IMG/VR virus record: IMGVR_UViG_3300024331_000037
Span: 1 to 58,583 of that record
Source of the DNA: a virus
Taxonomy: Duplodnaviria > Caudoviricetes
DNA length: 58,583 nucleotides
Reading direction: 5' to 3' (one strand)
The notes beneath the pieces were generated by a model that was not told where the DNA came from, searched no databases, and saw only the letters and a list, made by a program, of their open reading frames with translations. Of this stretch, positions 36,663 to 48,323 are shown one piece after another (the first letter of the stretch is position 1; each line of letters opens with the position of its first letter). Both the position numbers and the translations under genes were made by a program.

Positions 36663-39600
36663 ATGAAAAAGATATTACTTCCCATATTAATTCTGGTTAG
36701 CTTCTTTGGAAGTGCTCAAACGCATTACAATCCATCGCAGCAACCAGGATTTACATTCCCTATCAATAAACCCATAGGGCCAAACGGAAACTTTAATATT
36801 GAAGCGCGTAGCCTTAAAATGGATACGGTTAACTTCTTATATCGTTTGTATAATGGGACAGGGGAAATACTATCCTATCTTAATTTAGCTCAATTCCGTA
36901 GGGGATACTTCCCAATATATGCTAATGTTGGCGGGGCATTACAATCGAATGGTACGTTTATCGGTGGACAGACAGAAGTGTTTTGGTTTAAAAATGGTGT
37001 GGCAGATAGTAATTTAGTTCGCTGGTATACTGATTCTATTCCGCCCGGACTTGGATCAGTTACGAATGTTGCAGCTACAAACGCATTAGGATATACATGG
37101 ACGATAACAAACCCAACTACCACACCTAATATTTCTTTGAGTTTGACTGGCGGCGGCGATCTTTCAGGGACTTGGCCGTCGATCACAGTAAATTCAATAC
37201 AGGGGCATGACTTGTCCTACATACAGAATTATAACAATCTTTCAAACACGCCTGCACCTTTAACGCTCACCACAACAGGAACAAGCGGTGTAGCTACGTA
37301 TAATTCAGGTACAGGAGTTTTGAACATTCCAAACTATTCCGGTAGTGGTGGCGGATTATGCTTAAACTGTAACGCAGATACGATAGGGCATATCCCACTG
37401 AACTTTGTTTCTTTCTGTAATGGATGTGTGTTAACGTTAGATTCTGTAGCTGGAACGGCATCTTGGCAACCGCCAACCGGATCAGGGGGGCCTATACCGC
37501 CAAATATTGGTACAGGGTATAGGATTTATTCTCCACAAGTTCCAGGTTTAAGAAGTTTGATTTGCGCGTCAGGGTGTACGTTGGATTCTACGACTAATTC
37601 AAATTCTTTAACACTTACAATAACATCCGGCGGGGCGGGTACGGTTACAAGTTTTTCTGCAGGTAATTTAAGCGGGTTATTTACTACAGCAGTTTCAACG
37701 GCGACAACTACGCCAGCTCTTACCTTTACCGGGGCTACATTTCCAGCATATAACATTTATGGCAACAATACAGCTTCGCCAGCGGGGGCAATACAATTTG
37801 CGCCAACCTTTTCTATCCTAAATCAATGGGCGGGGGGTACAATTGCCTTATTGGGTAATATTCAAACATTTTCGGCTCTTAACACATTTAGTGGTGGATT
37901 AAAACTTTCTTCAAACGTAAGTTATTCGGCAGATAACACTTATGGAATAGGAGATGGAACAAATGGAGCTAATGATGTTTGGGCAAGATTCTTTGAATCA
38001 AATAGCCTCTTGAGCTTGGTATCCGGCGCATCTAGTGGGATTACTTTTTTTACCAATGGTGGCGGAGGTGCTAAGATGCTGTTAGCAAGTGGTGGACAAT
38101 TACAGTTAACCACTTACACGGGATCGGTAACGGGTACGCCGACTACTGTTGCAGAATTTGACGCGGCAGGTAATTTGATTCAAGGGGCTATCTCAGGGTT
38201 CACTAATAGCGTAACCAATTCTGACGGTACGTTAACGATTTCACCGACGTCTGGTAATGTAATAGCCTCTTTAAATTTAGCTCATGCGAATATGTGGAGT
38301 GCGTTACAGACGTTTGGGGCATTGACCGCTACAGGTACAGTTACGTTATCCGGGTTGTTGAGTGGCGGCGCAACGGATAGTGTGGTTACATGGAATCCAT
38401 CAACGCATGTGTTAGGAGTTACAACTAAATCTTTTCAATTATTTGCAGTACAAGGTGTTTCCTCGTTTTACTCCGGTGGGAATACGAATGTAGATACGAT
38501 TATTTTAGGTGGATCAAAGTCGCCGTTCTTTATGCCGGATACTATCGTTACACAAGGTCAATCGTTCTTGATTACAGGGCTGCCAAGCAAGGCATCATCC
38601 GTATCGACTGATAGCGTATTGGTCGAGGATGTAAATAAAAAGCTATGGTTGTTGCCTGTTCCTTCTGGCGGGGGTGGGGGATCACAGACGTTGCAGCAGG
38701 TATTCACGCAACAAAACCCAGCTATCTTAACCGTTTCAGATACTATTGATGCGGCAACAAATTCGGTTCCGCTAGTCTTAAAAGGTAATTTATTTTCATC
38801 GGCCAACGCTATATATACACTAGGTGGAGCTAATAACTTCCTTTCTGTAAACTCGCATCAATTTTTATCAAATAACAATTGGGTAGCTGGTGTTGGGTCT
38901 GCTTTTTCATATACGTTTAATATCAATTCATTGCCAGTATTTAATATAGCTAGTACTGGGCAGCAAAACTGGGCACCGTATATAGGTAACGTATTTGCCG
39001 GAACATTAACAGGCGGGAACCCTGATAGCGTAGTCACAATAAACAATGGTGCAGTTAGGAAAGTCCCGGCAGCTTCTTTCGGACTAGGCACAGTTACGAC
39101 ATTTAGCGCAGGGAATCTTTCGCCTTTATTCACCACTTCCGTAACCAATCCCACCACTACGCCTTCACTATCCTTTACTTTAAGTACAGCAGCGGCCAAT
39201 ACTGCTTTTGGTAACTTTACCGGCTCTACTGCCGCACCAGGATTTGGGAAAGTAAGCCTAGCAGCACAAGCAACAAATACAGCTAATACATTAATGGGGT
39301 ATGATGGGTCAGGTAATCCGTCAGATATAACGGCAGGGTCAGGAGTGACAATTGCGGCTGGTGTTATTAGCGCAAGCGGAGGGGGGACACCAGCATTATC
39401 TCCGGGGCATATTTTCGTTGGTAATGTATCTTCGGCGGCTACAGATACCGCTTTTGTGAATGATCAGCAAAACATGCAGCAGGTCAATTTATGGTACTCT
39501 GGGCAAGGTGATACAGCTATCAGCTTCATTACAAACTACAAATGGAATACCTTAGATTCTGTTCCGCTTCCATATTCTACCGTTGGTGCAACGAATGACT

Positions 39601-47897: not shown

Positions 47898-48323
47898 ATG
47901 AAATATCTATTAATCGCTTTACTTCTTTTCGTCGCTACCGTTGCTAAATCCCAAACATTAACTTCCACTCTTACTAACACGTTACCAGATAGTGTAACCA
48001 AATGGAAAGGTTTTAGGGCTACTGGCCCGATGGCCGTTTATGGTTATAACAAATCAAGCGGGAACAGTTTACTCACAGGTGTTGCGCTTTCGTATACATG
48101 GCAACATCTAACAACTGGCGGGACGTGGTGGGTTGACGAAGCTGCCGGATTAGCATTTTATGCAGGTGGTTCTCAGGCTCCATCTTCTTTAGCCTTTGTT
48201 TCCGCAGTTGGGCCGTACGTCTCATTTTTTAATGGCTATCTGTCTATAGGCGGCGCAATTAATTTAACCACAGGCAAACCTATGCTAACCGCTGGGGTCG
48301 CTTTACCCTTAATATCGAACTAG
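47898..48323 (+). CDS. Exported beta-strand protein
   Basis: MKYLLIALLLFVATVAKS|Q; alternating amphipathic strands. Confidence 0.65.
   Translation: MKYLLIALLLFVATVAKSQTLTSTLTNTLPDSVTKWKGFRATGPMAVYGYNKSSGNSLLTGVALSYTWQHLTTGGTWWVDEAAGLAFYAGGSQAPSSLAFVSAVGPYVSFFNGYLSIGGAINLTTGKPMLTAGVALPLISN

What the first reader, a model, noticed from the sequence alone, without database searches (positions are those of the whole stretch)
36663..48323. Fibre/spike-like proteins with Sec signal peptides and dense Bacteroidota O-glycosylation sequons: possible export-and-glycosylate system for phage fibres
Seen: four late-region proteins start with a basic-hydrophobic signal peptide ending before Gln (36663 FGSA|Q, 41984 FLQA|Q, 42241 TVSG|Q, 47898 VAKS|Q). 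Counted by eye, about 20 of about 55 Asp in the 1773-aa fibre lie in D-(S/T)-(A/I/L/V/M/T), against roughly 5 expected from composition. The beta-helix protein has 8 such motifs, the 86-aa protein 2 (DSL), and the 141-aa protein 1 (DSV). The major capsid has none and the 1320-aa tail stabiliser about 4. Both big proteins also carry paired cysteines. Established: Bacteroidota O-glycosylate extracytoplasmic proteins at this sequon, their SPI substrates often begin with Gln, and tailed-phage fibres normally fold in the cytoplasm without signal peptides. Inference: these proteins are exported, glycosylated (and possibly disulfide-bonded) by the host, then either joined to virions at lysis or displayed on the infected cell.
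Basis: partly seen in the sequence, partly recalled or inferred. Interest (0 to 1): 0.92.

Follow-up and report, generated by a model that had tools for sequence, protein, structure and literature searches.

The report
Exported, sugar-coated phage tail fibres
A phage of Bacteroidota bacteria gives its tail-fibre and spike proteins secretion signals and packs them with the host's sugar-attachment motif, which suggests that these virus parts mature outside the cytoplasm, a route not described for tailed phages.

Summary
The window is a 58.6-kb podophage record. Four late proteins (starts 36663, 41984, 42241, 47898) have Sec/SPI-type leaders ending just before Gln.

The sequon D-(S/T)-(A/I/L/V/M/T) occurs 20 times in the 1773-aa fibre against 5.55 expected (0 of 2000 shuffles). 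It occurs 31 times against 9.6 in the four proteins together, and 30 against 31.5 in the 46 other proteins. Control motifs are not enriched.

The pattern is family-wide. The fibre's N-terminal domain heads 488 protein clusters.
- Of the 150 clusters listed, 136 carry a leader obeying the Bacteroidota Q-rule and are 2.7-fold sequon-enriched.
- 13 begin M-x-YNP exactly where the others are cleaved. They have no leader and are barely enriched (1.35-fold).
- Leaderless members sit in ordinary tail modules.

Secreted proteins in a sample of a Mucilaginibacter genome are not enriched (0.94-fold).

Best reading (about 0.55): the fibres are exported, cleaved, O-glycosylated in the periplasm, and joined to particles when the holin opens the inner membrane. 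Export and glycosylation are well supported by sequence. Joining to the virion is inferred. The 141-aa protein belongs to the lysis cassette. The 1204-aa protein is a beta-helix glycanase that may not be virion-bound. I found no paper describing this.

The parts
35798..36661 (+). 287-aa protein with no signal peptide: helical N-part, Ig-like domain, beta C-part. It is the conserved neighbour immediately upstream of the fibre gene.
   Evidence: Pfam Ig_2, 31.4 bits (cutoff 27), residues 94-175. PHROG hits to tail and Hoc-like families through the Ig domain. Homologues of 287-304 aa sit directly upstream of the N-domain gene in L002, L003, L004, L012, L015, L017, L021 and L026. The fibre ATG lies 2 nt after its stop.
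36663..41984 (+). 1773-aa modular fibre protein. It consists of a Sec/SPI leader, a conserved N-terminal domain, repeat modules shared with other phage fibres, an SGNH/GDSL-like esterase domain and a C-terminal tip. It carries 20 O-glycosylation sequons.
   Evidence: Residues 147-268 and 1570-1611 match fibre-like ORFs without leaders in L005-L007. No match in INPHARED phages.
36663..36716 (+). Predicted signal peptide of the fibre (18 aa, cleavage FGSA|Q).
   Evidence: heuristic. Homologous leaders ending in a small residue followed by Q occur in all 12 homologues and in 136 of 150 family representatives.
36717..37112 (+). Conserved N-terminal domain (mature residues 1-132), the likely anchor to the particle.
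   Evidence: phmmer against 1.84 billion representatives gave 488 hits at E<=1e-3 and 313 at E<=1e-10. The domain always starts at residue 3-44 of the hit. Leaderless versions begin M-x-YNP at the position of the cleavage site. AF2 model: pLDDT 78.1, core residues 31-100 above 89.
39672..40280 (+). SGNH/GDSL-like esterase domain of the fibre (residues 1004-1206).
   Evidence: Pfam Lipase_GDSL_2, E 4.5e-6, 27.7 bits, below the 32.9-bit gathering score. The same family is precomputed on 7 of 12 homologues. G-A-S-L and D-G-V-H motifs are read.
41984..42244 (+). 86-aa exported protein. Its start overlaps the fibre stop, and its end overlaps the next start. It has two conserved DSL sequons.
   Evidence: All 17 aligned family members have a leader ending [AG]Q. 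D27-S28-L29 and D41-S42 are invariant. Four homologues share a longest-contig length with 1204-aa homologues.
42241..45855 (+). 1204-aa exported protein. It consists of a leader (GTG start), a region with weak RCC1-like repeats, and a right-handed beta-helix carbohydrate-active domain. It carries 8 sequons.
   Evidence: Among 27 homologues, 16 have a complete leader ending before Q, and each has 9-14 sequons against about 4 expected. RCC1 hits are weak (PDB phmmer E 0.0011).
43918..45852 (+). Beta-helix half of the 1204-aa protein (residues 560-1204).
   Evidence: AF2 pLDDT 85.8, pTM 0.87. Foldseek: BT_1002 glycoside hydrolase at E 2e-15, TM 0.52. Klebsiella K1 lyase and phage depolymerases or tailspikes at E 1e-8 to 1e-3, TM 0.2-0.33.
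45869..47436 (+). Cluster of small membrane proteins: 89 aa with an N-terminal TM segment and a charged helical tail; 97 aa, 100 aa and 188 aa, each with hydrophobic segments.
   Evidence: Read from the translations. No family hits apart from phrog_9829 of unknown function.
47481..47891 (+). Holin.
   Evidence: Pfam Phage_holin_10, 51 bits (cutoff 27).
47898..48323 (+). 141-aa exported protein (leader VAKS|Q) rich in Gly/Ala/Ser/Thr and aromatic residues. It lies between the holin and the endolysin and is probably an outer-envelope lysis component.
   Evidence: Leader+Q proteins lie next to the endolysin or at the same point in L003 and L012.
48504..49142 (+). Endolysin with no signal peptide.
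   Evidence: Pfam Rv2525c_GlyHyd-like, 82.2 bits. phrog_13480 endolysin.
3703..7163 (+). Phage glycan-gene cluster: a 503-aa DUF5672 + GT9-like protein, a methyltransferase and a GT2-like protein. It is possibly, but not demonstrably, linked to the fibre glycan.
   Evidence: A homologue of the 503-aa protein is in 3 of 5 leader-fibre phage records and 0 of 5 records with leaderless N-domain proteins.

Best explanation
The window is a podophage of a Bacteroidota host, possibly a Sphingobacteriia-like soil bacterium. The genes at the end of its structural module are the 1773-aa fibre, the small 86-aa protein and the 1204-aa beta-helix glycanase. They are made with cleavable Sec signal peptides.

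Proposed mechanism (all steps inferred):
1. The three genes are translated late, overlapping or abutting each other and abutting the last tail gene.
2. SecYEG exports the proteins, and signal peptidase I cuts just before Gln. Host glutaminyl cyclase can then convert that Gln to pyroglutamate.
3. The proteins fold in the periplasm, and the host's general O-glycosylation system loads glycans onto the many D-(S/T)-hydrophobic sites. Selection has raised the density of these sites about threefold. The phage's own glycosyltransferase and methyltransferase genes may alter that glycan.
4. The holin opens the inner membrane, and fibreless particles meet the periplasmic fibre pool inside the still-intact outer membrane. 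The fibre docks through its conserved N-terminal domain. The mature start of this domain is the same as the start of leaderless homologues that assemble in the cytoplasm in other phages.
5. The endolysin, the 141-aa exported protein and the small membrane proteins finish lysis.

What is shown here: the leaders, their conservation, the Q-rule, the motif-specific enrichment tied to leader presence, the synteny, and the folds. What is inferred: cleavage, glycan attachment, and attachment to virions.
For: 1. Leaders. The four named starts are the only genuine gene starts among the 10 hits of the scan.

2. Conservation of the leader.
- All 12 fibre homologues carry a leader ending in a small residue followed by Q.
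- 16 of 27 homologues of the 1204-aa protein have a full leader before Q. Another 4 start inside the leader, which suggests miscalled starts.
- All 17 members of the 86-aa family have a leader.

3. The N-domain family. There are 488 clusters at E<=1e-3. Of the 150 listed, 136 have a leader plus Q, 13 have no leader and 1 has a leader without Q.

4. Leaderless forms are real. Stop codons lie just upstream of their Met in viral contigs, and they start where the others are cleaved. They head proteins in ordinary tail modules. In L016, a complete 36.5-kb record, the protein follows major-tail-like and tape-measure-like genes. In L025 it has PHROG tail-fibre hits.

5. Sequon enrichment follows the leader.
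- 136 leader+Q representatives: 1579 observed against 590 expected (2.68-fold). 120 of the 126 that are at least 400 aa have a ratio above 1.5. The control motif runs at 0.89-fold.
- 13 leaderless representatives: 28 against 20.8 (1.35-fold), or 19 against 16.6 without P0109, which looks like a truncated leader.
- Inside the homologous N-domain itself: 1.46 sequons per protein against 0.58.

6. Specificity matches the known system.
- Only Asp is enriched at position 1 (2.55-fold); Glu is at 0.45-fold.
- At position 3, V, L, I, T, M and A are enriched, while G, F, N, P, D, E and Q are depleted.
- Glycoproteomic reviews report the same pattern. They also report that an engineered motif is sufficient for glycosylation and that only non-cytoplasmic proteins are modified (PMC12871550, passages read).

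7. Sequon turnover. Across 28 sequences of the 1204-aa family there are 44 distinct sequon columns, 17 of them in one sequence only, while each sequence keeps about 11. A distant relative, P0045, has a leader that does not end before Gln. It has 0 sequons against 5.1 expected.

8. Synteny. L002, L003 and L004 share one order. A giant leaderless protein (0-2 sequons against 4.7-6.8 expected) and a 287-290-aa Ig-like protein come first, followed by the leader-bearing fibre (10-21 against 4.7-6.8) and further leader+Q proteins.

9. Controls.
- A cultured Flavobacterium podophage has leaderless, unenriched fibres.
- Leaderless fibre relatives in L005-L007 are unenriched.
- 79 leader+Q proteins in 636 kb of a Mucilaginibacter genome show 100 against 106.7 (0.94-fold).

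10. A canonical holin and a leaderless endolysin are present.
Against: - No tailed-phage virion component is known to me to be Sec-exported. The particle is assembled in the cytoplasm, so a mixing step at lysis has to be postulated.
- Nothing here shows that the proteins are in virions. The window fibre itself has no PHROG hit.
- The best fold match of the 1204-aa protein is a bacterial secreted glycoside hydrolase, and that protein lacks the N-domain.
- Export alone does not produce the enrichment, because host secreted proteins run at 0.94-fold. An extra selective reason is needed and is unknown.
- There are exceptions. Two of the 9 leader-bearing N-domain fibres in viral loci are not enriched (L018: 2 against 4.2; L020: 1 against 4.1). 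Six of 126 long representatives are at or below 1.5.
- The leader-sequon association could not be shown to be phylogenetically independent. There were only 3 supported independent pairs (6 on all branches), with sign-test p of 0.5 or more.
- Leaders were called with a home-made heuristic, not SignalP.
- The host is unknown. The only genome hits were weak matches in two Mucilaginibacter assemblies.
Confidence: 0.55

Rival explanations
1. The proteins are exported and glycosylated but are not virion parts. They act in the envelope or on the surface of the infected cell. Possible roles are enzymes that strip or deacetylate capsule or exopolysaccharide to help release, receptor-destroying or receptor-masking factors that stop progeny and competitors from adsorbing, or proteins shed in vesicles. 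The real receptor-binding protein would then be one of the leaderless tail proteins.
For: - The beta-helix half of the 1204-aa protein matches a secreted Bacteroides glycoside hydrolase best.
- The fibre carries an esterase-like domain.
- Nothing here shows these proteins in virions.
- P. gingivalis prophages encode Q-rule secreted proteins of unknown function, which were interpreted as modifying the host envelope (PMC10367356, passages read).
- In L011, L019, L022 and L026 a leaderless N-domain protein is followed by large leader+Q proteins that lack the N-domain.
Against: - The fibre's N-domain also heads leaderless proteins in classical tail modules. The mature start of the exported forms coincides with the start of those proteins.
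- The family has the typical fibre design of a constant N-terminus with shuffled distal parts. Lengths range from 142 to 1945 aa.
- No other large receptor-binding candidate lies between the 2131-aa protein and the lysis genes.
- The gene abuts the last tail gene.
Confidence: 0.27
2. Dual fate. Only part of the fibre pool is exported. A cytoplasmic fraction, arising from inefficient targeting or an internal start, builds virions in the usual way, while the exported fraction has a separate envelope role.
For: - The public gene call for the 1204-aa protein starts at an internal ATG, giving 1133 aa. In-frame starts exist at residues 54 and 72.
- Some other phages produce free and virion-bound depolymerase forms (recalled, no call).
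Against: - In the fibre, the next in-frame start is at residue 53, inside the conserved N-domain. A form starting there would lack part of the presumed anchor.
- The h-regions are strongly hydrophobic (mean Kyte-Doolittle 2.4-3.1), which argues against leaky targeting.
- A threefold sequon enrichment implies that the exported form is the one under selection.
Confidence: 0.08
3. No export or no glycosylation. The hydrophobic N-termini would then be uncleaved anchors or assembly signals, and the D-(S/T)-hydrophobic excess would be a structural feature of these beta-rich fibre folds.
For: - No experimental data exist.
- Some sequons are conserved within repeated sequence, for example DSV(V/L)(T/V) in three similar stretches of the fibre and the two DSLKKY repeats of the 86-aa protein.
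- The phylogenetically independent test is underpowered.
Against: - Gln at +1 occurs in 136 of the 137 leader-bearing representatives. This is a Bacteroidota SPI signature (PMC5837995: title and abstract start only; PMC10653852: passages read).
- Fibres without leaders that share modules or the N-domain are not enriched.
- Sequon positions turn over while their number is kept.
- The position-specific preferences copy the glycosylation motif, including the exclusion of Glu.
Confidence: 0.1

Closest known systems
Q-rule signal-peptide proteins of Porphyromonas gingivalis prophages (Matrishin et al. 2023, PMC10367356; also cited in PMC10653852)
   Same: These are phage-encoded proteins with Sec leaders whose cleavage exposes Gln. 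They show that Bacteroidota phages use the host SPI and glutaminyl-cyclase route (passages read).
   Different: That work covers five proteins of unknown function in temperate phages, interpreted as modifying the host envelope. It does not report fibres, a family-wide N-terminal anchor domain or sequon enrichment. Its Supplementary Data 4 could not be opened, so I cannot exclude that some of those proteins are fibre-like.
General protein O-glycosylation of Bacteroidota at D-(S/T)-(A/I/L/V/M/T) (review PMC12871550)
   Same: The three-residue motif is the same, Glu is excluded in the same way, and the third-position preference is the same (against passages). Only non-cytoplasmic proteins are modified.
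   Different: The known substrates are bacterial. The word 'phage' does not occur in the main text of the review. Host secreted proteins sampled here are not enriched for the motif (0.94-fold), whereas the phage fibres are enriched 2.7-fold.
Glycosylated virions of mycobacteriophages (recalled from memory, no call)
   Same: Phage structural proteins carry glycans, and the phage genomes encode glycosyltransferases.
   Different: As I recall it, the modification there is made in the cytoplasm by phage enzymes on capsid and tail-tube proteins. No signal peptide or host general glycosylation system is involved.
Sec-dependent phage lysis proteins: SAR endolysins, spanins and lipoproteins (recalled; spanins with lipoprotein signals are mentioned in PMC10367356)
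   Same: Tailed-phage late proteins use the host Sec machinery. The 141-aa protein in the window probably belongs to this class.
   Different: Those are lysis or exclusion proteins, not large modular receptor-binding proteins.
Tail fibres and tailspikes with SGNH esterase or beta-helix depolymerase domains (for example Pectobacterium phage Possum, seen only in a search listing; Klebsiella and Acinetobacter phage depolymerases)
   Same: The design is modular, with enzymatic domains that act on surface polysaccharide. The fold of residues 560-1204 of the 1204-aa protein is a beta-helix.
   Different: Those proteins have no signal peptide and fold in the cytoplasm.

Membership tests
Sec/SPI substrates obeying the Bacteroidota Q-rule | Positively charged n-region followed by an uncharged hydrophobic h-region of about 9-15 residues at the extreme N-terminus | tested here: met
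   net charge +1 or +2, h-regions of 12-15 residues, mean hydropathy 2.4-3.1, for all four proteins.
Sec/SPI substrates obeying the Bacteroidota Q-rule | Small residue at -1, allowed residue at -3, Gln at +1, no lipobox Cys | tested here: met
   The four sites are G-S-A|Q, L-Q-A|Q, V-S-G|Q and A-K-S|Q. Gln at +1 occurs in 136 of 137 leader-bearing family representatives.
Sec/SPI substrates obeying the Bacteroidota Q-rule | Prediction by a trained tool (SignalP, DeepTMHMM) and actual cleavage or pyroglutamate formation | not testable with these tools
   No such predictor is offered. Cleavage needs N-terminal sequencing or mass spectrometry.
Substrates of the Bacteroidota general O-glycosylation system | D-(S/T)-(A/I/L/V/M/T) sequon present | tested here: met
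   20, 2, 8 and 1 sites in the four proteins. The motif-specific enrichment is shown.
Substrates of the Bacteroidota general O-glycosylation system | The protein is extracytoplasmic in a host that has the system | tested here: inconclusive
   Localisation is inferred from the leader only. The host is inferred from the Q-rule, from TerL relatives in Flavobacterium and Cellulophaga phages and from weak hits in two Mucilaginibacter genomes.
Substrates of the Bacteroidota general O-glycosylation system | Glycan attached to the Ser or Thr | not testable with these tools
   This needs glycoproteomics.
Phage tail fibre / receptor-binding protein | Gene located in the late structural module, next to the tail genes | tested here: met
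   The gene starts 2 nt after the last leaderless tail-region gene and lies upstream of the lysis cassette. The same order is seen in L002-L004, L012, L015, L017 and L021.
Phage tail fibre / receptor-binding protein | Conserved N-terminal anchor domain with variable distal domains | tested here: met
   The N-domain is always N-terminal in 150 of the 150 listed hits, whose lengths range from 142 to 1945 aa. Coverage of the fibre by its homologues is only 4-40%.
Phage tail fibre / receptor-binding protein | Sequence or profile similarity to annotated tail fibres | tested here: inconclusive
   The window fibre has no PHROG hit and no INPHARED match. Residues 147-268 and 1570-1611 match fibre-like ORFs in L005-L007. 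Leaderless N-domain proteins do hit tail-fibre and tail-spike PHROGs (L025 at E 3.6e-10; L016 at E 5e-4).
Phage tail fibre / receptor-binding protein | Presence in the virion | not testable with these tools
   No cultured member is available, and no proteome.
SGNH/GDSL hydrolase (fibre residues 1004-1206) | Pfam model match above the gathering score | tested here: inconclusive
   Lipase_GDSL_2 scores 27.7 bits against a cutoff of 32.9, E 4.5e-6, covering profile positions 2-177 of 178. A block-I Ser (G-A-S-L) and a D-x-x-H motif are read. There is no PDB sequence match.
Right-handed beta-helix glycanase or tailspike fold (1204-aa protein, residues 560-1204) | Beta-helix fold | tested here: met
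   AF2 pLDDT 85.8. Foldseek gives 45 PDB matches at E<=1e-3. The top match is BT_1002 at E 2e-15, TM 0.52.
Holin-endolysin lysis cassette | Holin and muralytic enzyme adjacent to each other | tested here: met
   Phage_holin_10 at 51 bits and Rv2525c_GlyHyd-like at 82.2 bits.

The most novel reading that the evidence does not exclude
A large family of Bacteroidota phage tail fibres, spanning different tail types and at least 488 clusters at 50% identity, matures in the periplasm. The fibres are Sec-exported, capped with pyroglutamate and densely O-glycosylated by the host's general glycosylation system, possibly with a glycan edited by phage glycosyltransferases. They are added to cytoplasmic particles only when the holin merges the two compartments. 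This would be the first Sec-dependent virion component of a tailed phage. It would also be the first case of a virus using a bacterial general protein-glycosylation pathway to coat its receptor-binding proteins.
Probability: 0.45. Interest if true: 0.95.

Novelty: new variant of a known kind. Interest (0 to 1): 0.85.

Why it matters
Tail fibres decide host range, and the accepted picture is that they fold and join the particle in the cytoplasm. A periplasmic, glycosylated route would change several things:
- It would add a new assembly step at lysis.
- Phage infectivity would depend on the host's Sec, signal peptidase, glutaminyl cyclase and O-glycosylation genes. These would become new resistance and trade-off loci.
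- Recombinant Bacteroidota phage fibres made in E. coli could be misfolded or lack function.
- Bacteroidota viruses could be recognised in metagenomes by a sequence signature alone (leader, Q at +1, sequon density).

The finding also raises a question about what the glycan coat does. It could give protease resistance or solubility to very long fibres, prevent sticking to the host's own surface, or play a part in receptor recognition. Because an engineered sequon is sufficient for glycosylation in these bacteria (PMC12871550), the idea can be tested directly with one cultured member or with a heterologous host.

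Tried and rejected
Searches for relatives that found nothing
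- Megablast of 36000-48500 found nothing in INPHARED phages. tblastn of the fibre and of the 1204-aa protein also found nothing there. No cultured relative of these proteins is in that collection.
- Single-protein scans of viral contigs with the fibre and with the leaderless member P0156 found nothing. Alignment-based scans did work.
- The 1204-aa family was not found in genome contigs with two short patterns. This does not prove absence.

Tests that gave no verdict or no signal
- Complex prediction of the 287-aa upstream protein against the fibre N-domain gave no verdict (score 0.01, mark 0.32). I do not count it for or against binding.
- Fold searches with the N-domain model gave no significant match. 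The best Foldseek E-value was 0.21, and the best VIA-align Z was 3.1. Several of the low rows are N-terminal parts of phage tailspikes, but Z values this low are at noise level.
- The protein-atlas look-up of fibre residues 19-330 gave scores of 0.90 or less, to viral 'hypothetical protein' clusters. I treat these as leads only.
- The sigma-70 promoter and terminator scan of 33000-50500 gave no more sites than shuffled sequence (35 against 37.6; 17 against 16.6). It is uninformative.
- PDB sequence search of the esterase region gave no hit.

Tests that weaken or limit a claim
- Cysteines as a sign of periplasmic folding. Cys content is 0.46% in leader-bearing and 0.51% in leaderless family members. 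It is 0.51% against 0.49% in the phage loci. Short C-x(0-5)-C pairs occur in 82 of 136 against 2 of 12, but the leaderless proteins are much shorter. I rejected this as evidence.
- Independence of the leader-sequon link on an N-domain tree. I used FastTree on 147 of 150 rows; three were dropped because my anchor pattern missed them. The tree shows 6 state changes and only 3 supported independent pairs, so the test is underpowered.
- A T9SS C-terminal signal was considered from the sequence only. No Pfam T9SS domain appeared in the scans run at E up to 1.

Literature
- Seven full-text searches found no paper describing signal-peptide-bearing or O-glycosylated phage fibres in Bacteroidota.
- For PMC12386605, PMC6199706, PMC8143477, PMC10367356, PMC12871550 and PMC10653852 I read only the passages returned by 'find'. 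All other titles were seen only in listings.
- Supplements were closed. Supplementary Data 4 of PMC10367356 might name the five Q-rule proteins.

Full report
WHAT THE WINDOW IS

The window is a complete IMG/VR virus record of 58,583 bases (CheckV estimate 86%). All genes lie on the + strand and there are no tRNAs.
- PHROG profiles identify the large terminase (8613-10676), the portal (11112-13580) and a run of 'virion structural proteins' up to the 1320-aa protein.
- The terminase is 27-29% identical to those of Flavobacterium 'elemo', Cellulophaga, Tenacibaculum and Maribacter podophages (87 records). The host is therefore almost certainly a member of Bacteroidota.
- After a 2131-aa protein come small tail-region proteins, interrupted by a homing endonuclease. 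They end with a 287-aa Ig-domain protein (35798-36661).
- The region of the finding starts 2 nt later.

THE OBSERVATION

Both halves of the observation are correct.

Signal peptides. A scan of every start codon of every + strand ORF for a charged N-region followed by an uncharged hydrophobic stretch gave ten hits. The four claimed starts are the only real gene starts among them. Each has a small residue at -1, an allowed residue at -3, Gln at +1 and no lipobox cysteine.

Sequon counts.
- The 1773-aa protein has 55 Asp, 20 of them in D-(S/T)-(A/I/L/V/M/T), against 5.55 expected. None of 2000 shuffles reaches 20.
- The 86-aa protein has 2 against 0.10.
- The 1204-aa protein has 8 against 3.59 (p = 0.02).
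- The 141-aa protein has 1 against 0.22, which is not significant.
- Together the four proteins have 31 against 9.6. The 46 other proteins of the phage have 30 against 31.5.

Controls. The excess is specific to the motif. Replacing Asp by Glu, Asn, Gln, Gly or Lys, or reversing the motif, gives no excess. D-(S/T) followed by a non-hydrophobic residue is depleted to 0.6-fold.

HOMOLOGUES

The fibre has 12 homologues of 1060-1772 aa on contigs of up to 92 kb.
- All 12 begin with a leader ending in a small residue followed by Gln.
- All 12 are sequon-enriched: 191 observed against 66.8 expected in total.

The 1204-aa protein has 27 homologues.
- 16 show a full leader before Gln.
- 4 start inside the leader and 4 start downstream of it. 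These are probably miscalled starts or fragments. The public call for the window's own gene also misses the GTG start.
- 2 have other hydrophobic N-termini.
- 1 distant homologue, P0045, has a leader that does not end before Gln. It has 0 sequons against 5.1 expected.
- Every closer member has 9-14 sequons against about 4 expected.
- The positions turn over. There are 44 distinct sequon columns in 28 sequences, and 17 of them occur in a single sequence. The number of sites is conserved more than their positions, which is what selection on glycan density would produce.

All 17 members of the 86-aa family have the leader and keep both DSL sites.

SYNTENY

Three related viral contigs (L002-L004) share the same order. 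A giant leaderless protein with 0-2 sequons (4.7-6.8 expected) comes first, followed by a protein of about 300 aa and the 287-290-aa Ig protein. After these come a leader-bearing fibre of 1707-2101 aa with 10-21 sequons (4.7-6.8 expected) and further leader+Q proteins.

THE N-TERMINAL DOMAIN AND ITS LEADERLESS RELATIVES

I searched the first 132 mature residues of the fibre against 1.84 billion representative proteins. There were 488 hits at E<=1e-3 and 313 at E<=1e-10. In all 150 listed hits the domain starts at residue 3-44, in proteins of 142 to 1945 aa. This is the classical design of a fibre family: a constant N-terminal anchor carrying shuffled distal parts.

Of the 150 listed, 136 have a leader with Gln at +1, one has a leader without Gln, and 13 have no leader and begin M-(A/P/S)-Y-N-P.
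- In viral contigs the leaderless genes have stop codons just upstream of the Met, so these are not annotation errors.
- In alignments their Met sits where the others are cleaved.
- The leaderless proteins lie in ordinary tail modules. In a complete 36.5-kb record with terminal repeats, the protein follows major-tail-like and tape-measure-like genes. In another record it hits tail-fibre PHROGs.

The domain is therefore a fibre head that works in the cytoplasm in some phages. In about nine-tenths of the family it is preceded by a secretion signal whose removal regenerates the same N-terminus.

ENRICHMENT FOLLOWS THE LEADER

- The 136 leader+Q representatives have 1579 sequons against 590 expected (2.68-fold). 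120 of the 126 that are at least 400 aa have a ratio above 1.5. A control motif runs at 0.89-fold.
- The 13 leaderless representatives have 28 against 20.8. Without P0109, which looks like a truncated leader, the figure is 19 against 16.6.
- Inside the homologous N-domain itself, the counts are 1.46 against 0.58 sites per protein.
- In 16 viral loci, leader+Q proteins have 140 against 71.0, and proteins without a leader have 155 against 175.7.
- Position preferences copy the published motif. Only Asp is enriched before (S/T)-hydrophobic (2.55-fold; Glu 0.45-fold). After D-(S/T), the residues V, L, I, T, M and A are favoured and G, F, N, P, D, E and Q are avoided.
- The 2025 review reports the same order. 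It also states that Glu is not tolerated in B. fragilis, that sites are nearly fully occupied, that an engineered motif suffices, and that only non-cytoplasmic proteins are modified (PMC12871550, passages).

CONTROLS AND EXCEPTIONS

- A cultured Flavobacterium podophage has leaderless, unenriched fibres.
- Fibre-like ORFs in L005-L007 that share modules with the window fibre are leaderless and unenriched.
- In 636 kb of a Mucilaginibacter genome, 79 leader+Q proteins have 100 sequons against 106.7 expected. The phage proteins are therefore far denser in sequons than ordinary secreted proteins. Export explains why the sites can be used, but something further must select for many of them.
- Exceptions exist. 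Two leader-bearing fibres in viral loci (L018, L020) and 6 of 126 long representatives are not enriched.
- A test on phylogenetically independent pairs had too few pairs to say anything.

THE OTHER PROTEINS OF THE REGION

The 1204-aa protein.
- Residues 560-1204 fold with confidence (pLDDT 85.8) into a right-handed beta-helix.
- The best match is the Bacteroides glycoside hydrolase BT_1002 (E 2e-15, TM 0.52). Capsule lyases and phage tailspikes follow at lower scores.
- Its N-half has weak RCC1-like repeats.
- It lacks the fibre N-domain, so it may be a soluble exported glycanase rather than a virion spike.

The 86-aa protein is genetically linked to the 1204-aa protein and may be its periplasmic helper. 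This is inference only.

The lysis region.
- The 141-aa protein lies between a holin (51 bits) and a leaderless endolysin (82 bits).
- It follows a cluster of small membrane proteins.
- I read it as part of the lysis apparatus, where a signal peptide is ordinary.

The fibre's own enzymatic domain is SGNH-like but scores below Pfam's gathering threshold.

HOW IT MOST LIKELY WORKS

1. The fibre module is translated late.
2. The proteins are exported by Sec and cut before Gln.
3. They fold and are O-glycosylated in the periplasm.
4. The holin opens the inner membrane, and fibreless particles and the periplasmic fibre pool then share one compartment bounded by the outer membrane.
5. The N-domain docks on the tail.
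6. The endolysin and envelope proteins release the particles.

The sequence signatures and their conservation are shown here. Cleavage, glycan attachment and docking are inferred.

The main rival is that the proteins are exported and glycosylated but act on the cell envelope and never join virions (about 0.27). The beta-helix protein fits that reading better than the fibre does. I give the reading with no export or no glycosylation about 0.1.

PRIOR KNOWLEDGE AND NOVELTY

The nearest report is that P. gingivalis prophages encode five unknown proteins with Q-rule leaders, taken to modify the host envelope (PMC10367356; repeated in PMC10653852). Seven full-text searches found nothing on exported or O-glycosylated phage fibres. 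Glycosylated mycobacteriophage virions, which I recall from memory, differ because no export is involved.

I rate this as a new variant of a known kind: phage tail fibres with an undescribed biogenesis route. It is of high interest because it is widespread, unexpected and directly testable.

A POSSIBLE LINK

The phage carries a glycan-gene cluster at 3703-7163: a DUF5672 + GT9-like protein, a methyltransferase and a GT2-like protein. A homologue of the first gene is present in 3 of 5 related leader-fibre phage records and in 0 of 5 records with leaderless N-domain proteins. These numbers are small and confounded by relatedness. It could edit the lipid-linked glycan that ends up on the fibres, or it could equally serve to alter host surface polysaccharide.

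Noticed in passing
window 3703-7163 (+): There is a glycan-gene cluster just upstream of the terminase. It holds a 503-aa DUF5672 + Glyco_transf_9-like protein, a Methyltransf_24 protein and a weak Glycos_transf_2 protein. A homologue of the 503-aa protein is in 3 of 5 leader-fibre phage records and 0 of 5 records with leaderless N-domain proteins.
   Followed up: partly
window 26961-33356 (+): The 2131-aa protein carries a histidine-phosphatase domain (65 bits, residues 1034-1100) and a weak GNAT-like domain. It is depleted in sequons (1 against 4.74 expected). Syntenic giants in L002-L004 are depleted too.
   Followed up: no
window 34348-35238 and 56748-57428 (+): There are two homing-endonuclease genes. 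One (phrog_314, GIY-YIG/HNH) is inserted among the tail-region genes, and one is NUMOD4 + HNH_3.
   Followed up: no
window 42241 (GTG start): The public gene call for the 1204-aa protein is 1133 aa and starts at an internal ATG, so the signal peptide is missing from the database entry. Several homologues also appear to be called from inside or after the leader. Automatic annotation therefore under-reports these leaders.
   Followed up: partly
L011, L019, L022/L024, L026: In these viral contigs a leaderless N-domain protein (195-674 aa) is followed by large leader+Q proteins of 892-1372 aa that lack the N-domain. Their sequon ratios vary: 9/3.9, 10/4.8, 9/5.9, 4/4.4 and 1/3.9. Exported large late proteins may therefore be more widespread in Bacteroidota phages than this one family.
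   Followed up: no
proteins P0059, P0065-P0078 and others: A large leader-bearing subfamily has two adjacent cysteines near the mature N-terminus (Q-T-Y-N-P-S-x-C-C-T-V-S-N-K). None of the leaderless members has them.
   Followed up: no
P0045: This distant relative of the 1204-aa protein (26% identity) has a leader that ends A-H-A|A-D with no Gln. It has 0 sequons against 5.1 expected. It may come from a phage or bacterium outside Bacteroidota.
   Followed up: no
L009 9047-12762 (Mucilaginibacter MAG contig): A chromosomal 1127-aa leader+Q protein shares fibre modules with the window fibre. It is followed by a 103-aa leader+Q protein, the same large-then-small arrangement as in the phage.
   Followed up: no
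window, whole: The protein database lists the longest contig for the window's own proteins as 69,420 bases, whereas the record held here is 58,583 bases with 86% estimated completeness. About 11 kb of this phage may lie outside the window.
   Followed up: no
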